Assembly (NCBI GenBank): GCA_951406725.2
Contig: OX597817.1
Span: 150,350,001 to 150,414,000 of the forward strand
Length of the DNA: 64,000 nucleotides
Reading direction: 5' to 3'
From: Octopus vulgaris
Lineage: Eukaryota
Positions 22,801 through 25,800 of this stretch are shown piece after piece. The translations under genes and the position numbers were made by a program. Every line of letters starts with the position of its first letter. Position 1 is the first letter of the stretch. Under the pieces are notes generated by a model, which did not search any database, had not been told where the DNA came from, and worked only from the letters and a program-made list of their open reading frames with translations.

Positions 22801-25800
22801 AACACTCTCATAAAATACATGTCCCATAAGTAAATTCTTTTGGAAAAATGAGCAGAAAAATCTCATAATGAGAAGCTCTTATTAATAACAATCACCAACA
22901 ACACTTCAATGGTTGAAGCAATGAAAGGGCCTGCTGTGTGGTCATTCTCAATGTGCTAAAAATAGCAGCCAACTCTTTAATCACACAATATTGCCTTAAG
23001 AAAGAAGGACACACTGGGCAACATAGTTCCAGATCTACAAAATGATGACCGAAATGCCAGACCACAACAACATCTCTTGAACTGAATACCAGTAATACCA
23101 TGAGGATAACATGTTCAGGAAATTACAAGCTGATTAATCACATCAGCCTAACTGGTACTGTAGAACATGCAAACACTAAAAATGTATGAGAACATTGATA
23201 TAATTTCATCTCTTCTTTGGAAACGAACAGAAAATAACATCCTGTGGACACGTCCATCAACATCAGGTTGTTTAGTTGAAGGAAAATGATGGAGACTGTG
23301 GTCATCCAAGAGGCTAGAAATTAGCAGCTAAATCACTCTCAAATTCTACCATACCACCTGAGACAACACATTAAACAGTATGGTCCTAGGTACACTGTGC
23401 GTAGAAAACAATGGGATAGTAATGTTTAGAATACTTCAATCTTGATTGAGTAGATTTTTGATCATAAGCCTGCTCAATCAAAGCTGATTTGGGGTTAAAC
23501 AACAAGATAAACATCCTATATAACAAGGAAACTAGTATACTCAATAAATACCCAGATAGAGCCCATTCAAGAATATATAGTACTAAACTGTCTACTTTTA
23601 ACATTTCTAGAACTGAAATCCAAACTATGAAGGAATTAATTCTTTGTTCAAGTCTTCACAATCAACACATTTATTTTTTCACACACTGACAAATTACCAA
23701 ATAATTTTATGGACAATAAAATCATTAGAAGACAAAAAGTTTTAAATTTCCATAAACATTCTTCATTGGGTGGTAAAAAAATTAGCCCAGCCTAATCTAC
23801 TGAAATTAAATTATAGTTTATATATGTGAACATTTAACTGAATTTTCAATTTATTTTCCACTAATTAATGCAGAGAAGCCATGCATTTAGATTTTAAAAA
23901 ATGACAGAAAGCTATCAAGCATGGTTGTGCAGTTAAGAGCTTCACTTCATAGCCACATGTTTCCAGGTTTGACCCAATGCTCAACACTGTGAACAGAAAT
24001 TACTTCTAGCTTCAGGTTAACCAATGCACTAGGAGTGAAATTTGGTAGGTGGAAACTGCAGAAGTTGTAAGATGCATGTAATTGCATGTGGGTTGCTTGA
24101 GTGATAAGCCAACAGTGCTTGCCAGAGCCAAAGATAATTGTAGATTATTTTAGACTTGCTGATAAGTATTGTTGATATAAAGTGAAGCATACAAAACTTT
24201 TATGTATGAGGAAATCATCTGCCTTACTTACATACAATTATACCAACCTCTACATACATCTAATGCATCTTTTATGTAAGACCAAAAAAAATTACAAATG
24301 TGTATATCAGTGCAGGTACATTGTGGTATTTATATCCACCTTTAGTGAGTTTAACTCAATAGGTGAACTTAGATGTTGAAATAAAGACATCTATAAAAGA
24401 AGTACAAGAATAAGTAAGGGCATTAATATAACTGACAAAAACAAATAGAGTGCCCTAGAATGGTCGCAGTTTAAAGACTGAAACCAGTAAAAGAATACTC
24501 TGGATGACATACTAACCAATATCTTTATACTTGAAACTCCACATAAAATTTCATCGTTCATGCACTTTTAATCAACTCAAAATCAGAGAATGGATCACAT
24601 TTTATGATCATTATAATTAATCCCATAAAACTGCTTGTTTTATCAGGAGGAGGAGGAAAAGGAAGGAATGTACTTAATTTTGAAATATTAAATAATTGGA
24701 AAAGAATATTAAAATGTTACTATGGCGAGGAACAGAAAAAACATGCAATATCCACAAATTTTTTGACTAATTATTGAAATCAGAATTAAGGTACAAAAAA
24801 ACAAAAAATGCTGTATTGTGTCTAATTCCCCCATGCTAAATGTAATTGATATAGACATTTCAATACACCCATAAAAGGATGTATTAAGAAAGGGAGTAAT
24901 CTTAAACATATATCACTCAAACATTGTAATATGCAGTAAAATGTTGATAAAATATGTCAAGAGAAGAGAGAGAAAATAGGCTACAATTCACCAAAACTTA
25001 CTTGATTCACCAAAACTTACTTCATTGATATACAATTTTTTGTTTTTTATTTTTATAATTCACACAAAATATATATTTCAATCTGTTCTAATATTAGAAT
25101 TCTAAGTTTGTAGAAATACACAAGAAACTAAATAACACCTTGTTAAGACCATTCAAGAAGACATATTACAAAATAATTATTTGAATTAGTCTCATAGAAT
25201 ATTAGTATAACAGGTAAATAATTCCTGTAAGATATGGCTGGAAGTGGGTATGGAGTGTGATTGGCAGCATTAACACAACCATTTGCATCAGCATAGAACT
25301 ACTTACGGCCCACGAGAGCGTTGCCTGGAATATCTTGAACGTCGGCTTGCAAAAAACAAAAATTCAAAGCTTTTTCACAAACAAAATTAATTGCAGCACA
25401 TGCATTTATGGAAAGCTTGTGAAGAGAGTGACTGAGTAAATTTAATGTCCATAACTTGGAGAAAAGTTGGAGAAACTAGTTGGAAGAGTAACTGCTTTAT
25501 TAGAACATGTACCAATAATTTAAAAGATTATTAATTTGTTTAAAACCTAAAATGTGAGTTAGAAAATCAACACTAGTAAATGAGACCTACATGAATGTTG
25601 CAAAGTGGGTGTAATCTCAACAATTTAATCATCTTTAAACATCGAGAATTTTTGCTATTTGCTGTGTAAATATTCAAAATGATAATTATATACAAATTAT
25701 CTATAACCGAATATTAATTTAACTAAGATCAGAATTTGATTCTCATTCCTTAACACCATTAATTATTCTGAAAAAGGCATGAACAAAATGTTCTTCATCA

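What the first reader, a model, noticed from the sequence alone, without database searches (positions are those of the whole stretch)
25307..25345. Hidden 39-nt microexon inserting an RS peptide into the kinase N-lobe
Seen: in the 9.5-kb phase-2 intron between the Gly-loop exon and the ALK exon lies tttttgttttttgcaag|CCGACGTTCAAGATATTCCAGGCAACGCTCTCGTGGGCC|gtaagt. Inclusion changes KDVA-R-NGQ to [21 protein letters not shown] (+13 aa) in the beta2-beta3 loop. It is CpG-rich against an AT-rich background, has UGC next to the acceptor and TGCATG at 25399-25404. Known: RS and R-x-x-S peptides are CLK substrates and speckle/nuclear signals; UGC near the 3' site typifies SRRM3/4-type neural microexons. 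Inference: a switchable substrate-mimic loop within the catalytic domain. It is invisible to the ORF track.
Basis: partly seen in the sequence, partly recalled or inferred. Interest (0 to 1): 0.9.

Follow-up and report, generated by a model that had tools for sequence, protein, structure and literature searches.

The report
Octopus splicing kinase gains RS loop
A 39-base optional exon in the octopus gene for CLK, a kinase that controls splicing, adds a short arginine-serine-rich stretch predicted to form a floppy surface loop on the catalytic domain, where it likely acts as a switchable docking or localisation patch, possibly in neurons.

Summary
The exact 13-residue insert is in 6 of 8 listed Octopus sinensis RefSeq isoforms and in the O. 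bimaculoides model. It is absent from 2 of 8 O. sinensis and 7 of 7 O. vulgaris models listed. An unnamed protein branching outside Octopus+Argonauta carries an 11-residue RS homologue at the same site, so the exon is old. Other molluscs and animals examined lack an RS insert there. AlphaFold2 puts it in a low-confidence coil between beta2 and beta3 of an intact CLK2-like fold.

The acceptor is weak (AAG) with UGC beside it, and an intact eMIC regulator is in the genome. But the AG-free zone is short, and TGCATG lies upstream, the repressing side. Only 1 of 4 serines fits R-x-x-S. No reads were examined, so tissue specificity is untested. The likelier role is an RS docking or localisation patch, not a substrate mimic. 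It is already in automatic annotation; my searches found no paper on it.

The parts
25307..25345 (-). 39-nt cassette exon, phase 2-2; with flanking bases encodes [14 protein letters not shown] (6 RS/SR dipeptides, net charge +6)
   Evidence: in proteins P0102, P0107, P0113, P0115, P0116, P0120, P0108
25346..25369 (-). 3' splice site: U-rich tract, TGC at -6..-4 (25351-25349), non-consensus AAG acceptor; AG-free zone 22 nt
25386..25390 (-). TTAAT at -45, the only branch-point-like YTRAY within 60 nt (role inferred)
25399..25404 (-). TGCATG (Rbfox-type), upstream of the exon; one of 6 in the intron
25301..25306 (-). 5' splice site GTAAGT after GCC; score 4.6, tied lowest among the gene's donors
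25263..25293 (-). three downstream YGCY (Mbnl-type) motifs at +14, +38, +41; about 1.3 expected per 150 nt
25234..25260 (-). downstream cluster of four YCAY (Nova/Pasilla-type) at +47..+73; one of 2 such clusters in the 9.5-kb intron
32254..32320 (-). upstream exon, Gly-rich loop and beta2; ends in phase 2
22590..22706 (-). downstream exon (117 nt, phase 2-2), beta3 Lys (ALK) and helix alphaC
1699..62934 (-). host gene: CLK/Doa LAMMER kinase, span of the coding exons mapped in the window

Best explanation
This is an in-frame 39-nt alternative exon of the octopus CLK/Doa kinase gene that adds a basic RS-rich stretch between strands beta2 and beta3, predicted to be a disordered surface loop that leaves the fold intact and likely works as an extra RS docking and localisation patch, tuned by phosphorylation. 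Shown: the exon, its frame, both isoforms in annotation, an older homologue. Predicted: loop position and disorder. Inferred: (1) weak splice sites make skipping the default and a tissue factor (eMIC-Srrm234, perhaps with Pasilla/Nova) turns inclusion on, neural with odds near one half; (2) the loop does what RS-rich CLK N-termini do, binding SR proteins or other CLK molecules and favouring nuclear speckles; (3) its serines are phosphorylated in trans by CLK or SRPK, which would neutralise the charge. The effect would be largest on isoforms whose N-terminus has no RS dipeptide at all.
For: Insert in 6 of 8 listed O. sinensis RefSeq isoforms and in O. bimaculoides XP_014781440.2, skipped in 10 other octopod models. 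RS homologue with shared RSRYS and SRG cores in P0007, 81% identical overall, sister to Octopus+Argonauta with 96/89 support: RS character is kept while length and register change, as expected of a disordered patch. Model from a 44-row alignment: strands 112-119 and 138-145 at pLDDT about 92-93, residues 128-135 below 50; best Foldseek match human CLK2, TM 0.91-0.94 by target. RS motifs in CLK N-termini drive self-association and SR-protein binding, and N-terminal isoforms set localisation in fly and worm (PMC12795684 section 15; bioRxiv 10.64898/2026.02.22.707342 abstract). The insert occurs with N-termini holding 0 RS/SR dipeptides (P0102, P0107, P0007) as well as with the 13-dipeptide one. 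eMIC is intact in the genome, in two exons on C25.
Against: No reads, no tissue data, no biochemistry. Low pLDDT at the insert may only reflect that 2 of 44 alignment rows carry it. The loop tolerates unrelated inserts of up to about 11 residues in some other proteins, so it could be a neutral site. Fourteen residues is small beside a 177-residue RS N-terminus. Exon combinations in RefSeq models need not be real molecules. The eMIC code is only partly met. Conservation outside Octopus rests on one unnamed protein whose DNA I did not obtain.
Confidence: 0.5

Rival explanations
1. The loop is a cis substrate mimic or pseudosubstrate: it folds into the active site, is autophosphorylated or blocks it, and so switches activity.
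For: One serine (S132 in P0107) has Arg at -3, -1 and +1, the CLK2/CLK3/DOA preference (PMC2667211 section 9). A Tyr is kept in both species and CLKs autophosphorylate.
Against: 3 of 4 serines lack Arg at -3; the R-x-x-S site is not at the same place in P0007. Serines are retained rather than replaced, unlike a true pseudosubstrate. The model shows coil. By general kinase architecture (recalled; no coordinates were available to measure) a 14-residue loop anchored at the beta2-beta3 turn is unlikely to reach the groove.
Confidence: 0.12
2. The exon is a real but near-neutral passenger: a tolerated insert in a permissive loop, kept because it preserves frame.
For: Other proteins have unrelated inserts at this loop: 9 of 133 representatives with a span of 27 or more, one of them a pattern mis-match; Mactra has +6 aa. 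Length differs between homologues (13 vs 11).
Against: Identical peptide in three Octopus species (window, O. sinensis, O. bimaculoides) and an RS-rich homologue on a deeper branch; CpG kept in a CpG-poor intron. RS content in an RS kinase is an unlikely accident.
Confidence: 0.15
3. The exon is a feedback sensor at the RNA level: SR proteins activated by CLK bind the exon and set its inclusion with kinase activity or temperature, not with cell type; the loop then changes stability or location of the kinase.
For: Vertebrate CLK1 regulates its own splicing (abstract); CLKs are thermosensitive (PMC12795684 passages). The exon is GC/CpG-rich with weak sites.
Against: No direct evidence. The exon is frame-preserving, so it cannot lower kinase level by decay. 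Not exclusive of the best explanation.
Confidence: 0.15
4. Inclusion is tissue-specific but not neural (muscle by Mbnl, or others), with Rbfox repressing from upstream.
For: Three YGCY downstream and TGCATG upstream; upstream Rbfox sites tend to repress. Worm CLK has a muscle isoform (PMC4849719 passages).
Against: Three YGCY against 1.3 expected is weak. UGC at -6 with a weak acceptor and a downstream YCAY cluster fit eMIC plus Pasilla, which co-regulate exons in fly (PMC8797185).
Confidence: 0.2
5. Chance splice signals or an annotation artefact; the segment is not an exon.
For: 0 of 7 listed O. vulgaris models and the Argonauta model include it. Splice score lead is thin. No reads seen.
Against: Independent annotations of two species and an unrelated 2.6-kb contig protein give an insert at the same junction.
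Confidence: 0.03

Closest known systems
eMIC (SRRM3/4, Srrm234)-dependent neural microexons
   Same: Short (fly median 31 nt), frame-preserving, weak 3' and 5' sites, UGC next to the AG, predicted surface loop in a folded domain.
   Different: AG-exclusion zone short, no CUAAY, no UCUC within 60 nt, long flanking introns (6.9 and 2.6 kb) unlike fly targets; dependence and tissue untested.
CLK/Doa/MADD-3 isoforms (LAMMER kinases)
   Same: One gene, many isoforms that differ in RS content and are linked to localisation.
   Different: The review read says fly and worm isoforms differ only in their N-termini; here the RS piece is inside the catalytic domain. The three kinase-domain variation hotspots it lists do not include beta2-beta3. 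A very short alternative exon in fly Doa is something I half recall; those papers were not held.
CLK1/CLK4 exon 4 autoregulation in vertebrates
   Same: The SR kinase's own pre-mRNA is alternatively spliced (abstract).
   Different: There skipping truncates the kinase (recalled); here both forms keep the whole domain.
SRPK spacer insert and CLK beta7/8 hairpin
   Same: Non-catalytic inserts in the kinase domain of SR kinases that tune substrate handling.
   Different: Those are constitutive and C-lobe; this one is optional, 13 aa, N-lobe, RS-rich.

Membership tests
CLK/LAMMER kinase gene | [11 protein letters not shown] motif, HTD catalytic loop, beta-hairpin and MAPK-like inserts | tested here: met
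   All present in P0107; human CLK2 best by sequence (E 3e-175) and fold; Pkinase
Alternative cassette exon | Included and skipped products from one locus | tested here: met
   Annotated proteins only: O. sinensis 6 with and 2 without of 8 listed; both map to the window. No reads.
Microexon | Length under about 50 nt (wide definition), frame-preserving | tested here: met
   39 nt; definition from PMC10551640 section 12
Microexon | Length of 27 nt or less (strict definition, recalled) | tested here: not met
   39 nt
eMIC/SRRM3/4-dependent exon | Weak 3' splice site with UGC close to it | tested here: met
   AAG acceptor, score 6.2 (second lowest against 14); TGC at -6, seen at 0.6% of 490 intronic AGs, within 20 nt at 21%. 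One constitutive acceptor has TGC at -5.
eMIC/SRRM3/4-dependent exon | Long AG-exclusion zone, strong CUAAY branch point, UCUC-rich tract | tested here: not met
   22 nt, second shortest of 14; no CTAAY within 60 nt; nearest UCUC at -81 (criteria from PMC8797185 section 10)
eMIC/SRRM3/4-dependent exon | eMIC domain encoded in the genome | tested here: met
   PF15230 over cut-off at G000:C25:37317492-37317626; second half in matching phase in L085 at about 4382
eMIC/SRRM3/4-dependent exon | Neural-specific inclusion that depends on eMIC | not tested
   No expression data were obtained
CLK substrate peptide | Arg at -3, with Arg or Pro at +1 | tested here: inconclusive
   1 of 4 serines in Octopus, 1 of 5 in P0007, at different positions; all 4 Octopus serines have Arg at +1
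Pseudosubstrate/autoinhibitory loop | Occupies the substrate groove in cis | tested here: inconclusive
   Model gives low-confidence coil; coordinates not available for distances

The most novel reading that the evidence does not exclude
Cephalopods evolved a neuron-specific splice switch that bolts an RS patch onto the N-lobe of their single SR-protein kinase, turning RS-less isoforms into speckle-targeted, SR-docking ones. The master kinase of splicing would itself be a target of the neural microexon program, linking eMIC to global SR phosphorylation in the cephalopod brain.
Probability: 0.2. Interest if true: 0.75.

Novelty: new variant of a known kind. Interest (0 to 1): 0.45.

Why it matters
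CLK sets SR-protein phosphorylation and so much of alternative splicing, and this genome shows one CLK gene. Known CLK isoforms change the disordered N-terminus or truncate the enzyme. An optional RS loop inside the catalytic domain, kept on the cephalopod branch and not seen elsewhere in my survey, would be a different way to tune it. It gives a clean natural test of whether an RS patch works outside the N-terminus, and a candidate link between neural microexon control and the SR kinase layer. The exon itself is already in automatic annotation, so the new part is its meaning, which is untested.

Tried and rejected
No sequencing reads were examined, so inclusion level and tissue remain open. 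The long-read annotation in the supplement of PMC9699675 was too large to unpack and a search of the readable part found nothing for CLK2 or the accessions. Supplements of bioRxiv 10.64898/2026.09.05.749416, which covers O. bimaculoides tissue-specific exons, are closed; its main text has 0 mentions of CLK or Doa. They may list this exon.

More homologues: a search with the P0007 insert region gave 3 proteins, P0007 and two O. vulgaris. A search of short proteins gave 106, none with an RS insert. The metagenome scan did not return the contig of P0007; 51 of 80 loci covered the loop and none had a span over 26. No named squid, cuttlefish or Nautilus CLK came up, so P0007 cannot be placed more exactly.

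Single-sequence fold failed (pLDDT 31.7) and was not used. RNA folding of 25230-25420 is weaker than shuffles (z +1.9): no structure element. TGCATG rejected as support for neural inclusion. A homologue of P0007's second insert was not found in window 1000-17500 with loose patterns. In the tree my C-terminal trim failed and tails were kept; columns filled in under 30% of rows were dropped by the tool. No complex prediction was run. Earlier scan findings: none.

Full report
Observation. The flanking exons are 32320-32254 and 22706-22590. Both junctions are phase 2, and inclusion adds 13 residues without a stop. The intron is 9,547 nt, 32% GC, with 0.19 CpG per 39 nt; the exon has 4 CpG and 59% GC, and only windows overlapping it reach 4 CpG. 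With matrices trained on 14 acceptors and 13 donors of this gene it ranks 1 of 251 in-frame candidates, by 10.8 to 10.6. The stretch has one match in the genome.

Host gene. The next exon is identical to Octopus proteins named CLK2. Eight annotated isoforms map exon by exon onto 62934-1699. The best solved relative is human CLK2 by sequence and fold. A search with a conserved exon found this locus and one weak 49% match elsewhere, in line with one CLK gene in molluscs (PMC12795684, passage).

Is it an exon? Of 21 octopod proteins listed from two clusters (6 of 6 and 15 of 29 members), 17 cover the site. Seven carry the exact insert: O. sinensis X1, X2, X6, X7, X8, X14 and O. bimaculoides XP_014781440.2. 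Ten lack it: O. sinensis X4 and X11, seven O. vulgaris models and one Argonauta model. The included form maps to 25345-25307. These are automatic gene models; I saw no reads, so level and tissue of inclusion are unknown.

Conservation. Unnamed protein P0007 (2.6-kb contig, 81% identical to P0107) reads KDIE-RSRSRYSKSRGS-NGQ, an 11-residue insert at the same junction with shared RSRYS and SRG cores. In a 29-row tree it is sister to Argonauta+Octopus (96/89; that pair 100/99). The exon therefore likely predates the Octopus-Argonauta split, and its absence from the one Argonauta model may be skipping. This rests on one protein. Elsewhere: 0 of 32 isoforms covering the loop from 8 clusters of chiton, bivalves, limpets and nemerteans have an insert (36 listed). 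Among 197 of 248 proteins with a readable span, RS-type inserts occur only in the six O. sinensis isoforms and P0007. Among 133 of 150 representatives none is RS-rich, though 9 have longer spans. Among 51 of 80 metagenome loci none exceeds 26. Mactra has an unrelated 6-residue insert at the same junction. The loop is thus permissive, and the RS version looks confined to the cephalopod branch.

Structure. A model of P0107 from a 44-row alignment (mean pLDDT 69.8) has strands at 100-108, 112-119 and 138-145, with the insert (122-135) mostly coil and 128-135 under pLDDT 50. This confirms the beta2-beta3 position and an intact core. Low confidence may reflect shallow coverage.

Splicing code. Fly eMIC targets have weak 3' sites, UGC near the AG, long AG-free zones, UCUC tracts and strong branch points (PMC8797185, section 10). 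Here the acceptor is AAG, while 13 of 13 other acceptors tabulated are CAG or TAG; TGC sits at -6; but the AG-free zone is 22 nt and there is no CTAAY within 60 nt. The regulator exists: PF15230 scores over its cut-off on C25 and the second half of eMIC follows in matching phase about 24 kb on. TGCATG is upstream, where Rbfox tends to repress (PMC10551640, passages), and is one of 6 in the intron. A four-YCAY cluster at +47 to +73 is one of 2 in the intron; Pasilla/Nova overlaps most with eMIC targets in fly. I scanned nine motifs on both sides, so this is modest, post hoc evidence. Neural inclusion: about even odds.

Mechanism. CLKs prefer Arg at -3, and CLK2, CLK3 and DOA also Arg at +1 (PMC2667211, section 9). 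One of four serines fits fully, and the fitting serine lies elsewhere in P0007. What is kept is RS composition and charge (+6 and +5), not a register. That fits a disordered interaction patch better than a fixed substrate mimic. RS motifs in CLK N-termini promote self-association and SR binding, and N-terminal isoforms set localisation (PMC12795684, section 15; bioRxiv 10.64898/2026.02.22.707342, abstract). The gene has an N-terminus with 13 RS/SR dipeptides and others with none; the insert is annotated with both, and P0007 pairs it with an RS-less one. I commit to an added docking/localisation patch, phosphorylated in trans, at 0.5. All functional steps are inferred.

Known and new. It works like a neural-type microexon inserting a surface loop; membership of the eMIC class is not established, as one feature set is not met and dependence is untested. 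The review read lists three variation hotspots in CLK kinase domains, not this loop (section 13). Eight searches of open-access full text listed no paper on this exon. Passages of PMC9699675, PMC10370119 and bioRxiv 10.64898/2026.09.05.749416 have no mention of CLK; PMC11703226, PMC10952393 and PMC4849719 were seen as passages only. Subscription papers, including those on fly Doa isoforms, and unseen supplements could hold it.

Verdict. A real, old, alternative exon, already in automatic annotation, with an untested but plausible role. New variant of a known kind; interest 0.45.

Noticed in passing
window 16222-16135 and 15121-15031 (minus): Two duplicated exons for the segment after the LAMMER motif (MAPK-like insert/alphaH region); annotated octopus isoforms use one or the other, so they look mutually exclusive. 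Both have AAG acceptors, like the 39-nt exon.
   Followed up: partly
window 8392-8083 and 1872-1699 (minus): Two paralogous last kinase exons. The distal one is read in frame as an alternative C-lobe end, or in another frame as an 8-residue tail after the proximal one. With the pair above this gives four C-lobe versions.
   Followed up: partly
window 62934, 45350-45147, 44458-44273, 34714 (minus): Several alternative N-termini: one RS-rich, one Thr/Asn-rich without RS, one very short; also a CAGCAG tandem acceptor at 34678/34675.
   Followed up: partly
window 22706-22590 (minus); protein P0108: The O. bimaculoides model joins the 39-nt exon straight to the following exon and lacks the 117-nt beta3/alphaC exon in frame. 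Probably an assembly gap, but it would be a kinase-dead isoform if real.
   Followed up: no
protein P0007, just before the last kinase exon: A second insert of 7 residues, at an exon junction of the octopus gene; 1 of 52 proteins with that span readable; no match found in the window. Possibly another microexon.
   Followed up: partly
protein P0090 (Mactra antiquata): An unrelated 6-residue insert at the same junction as the octopus exon; single model, may be an independent microexon or a prediction error.
   Followed up: partly
L082 about 1500-1635 and L085 about 4382 (G000:C25): Octopus Srrm234 eMIC domain in two exons about 24 kb apart, intact and in phase.
   Followed up: yes
window about 31905 (minus): The only other dense YCAY cluster of the intron, about 350 nt below the Gly-loop exon.
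   Followed up: no
window about 59700-61300: GC-rich stretch (up to 49%) with repeated-looking open frames in the first intron, probably a transposon remnant.
   Followed up: no
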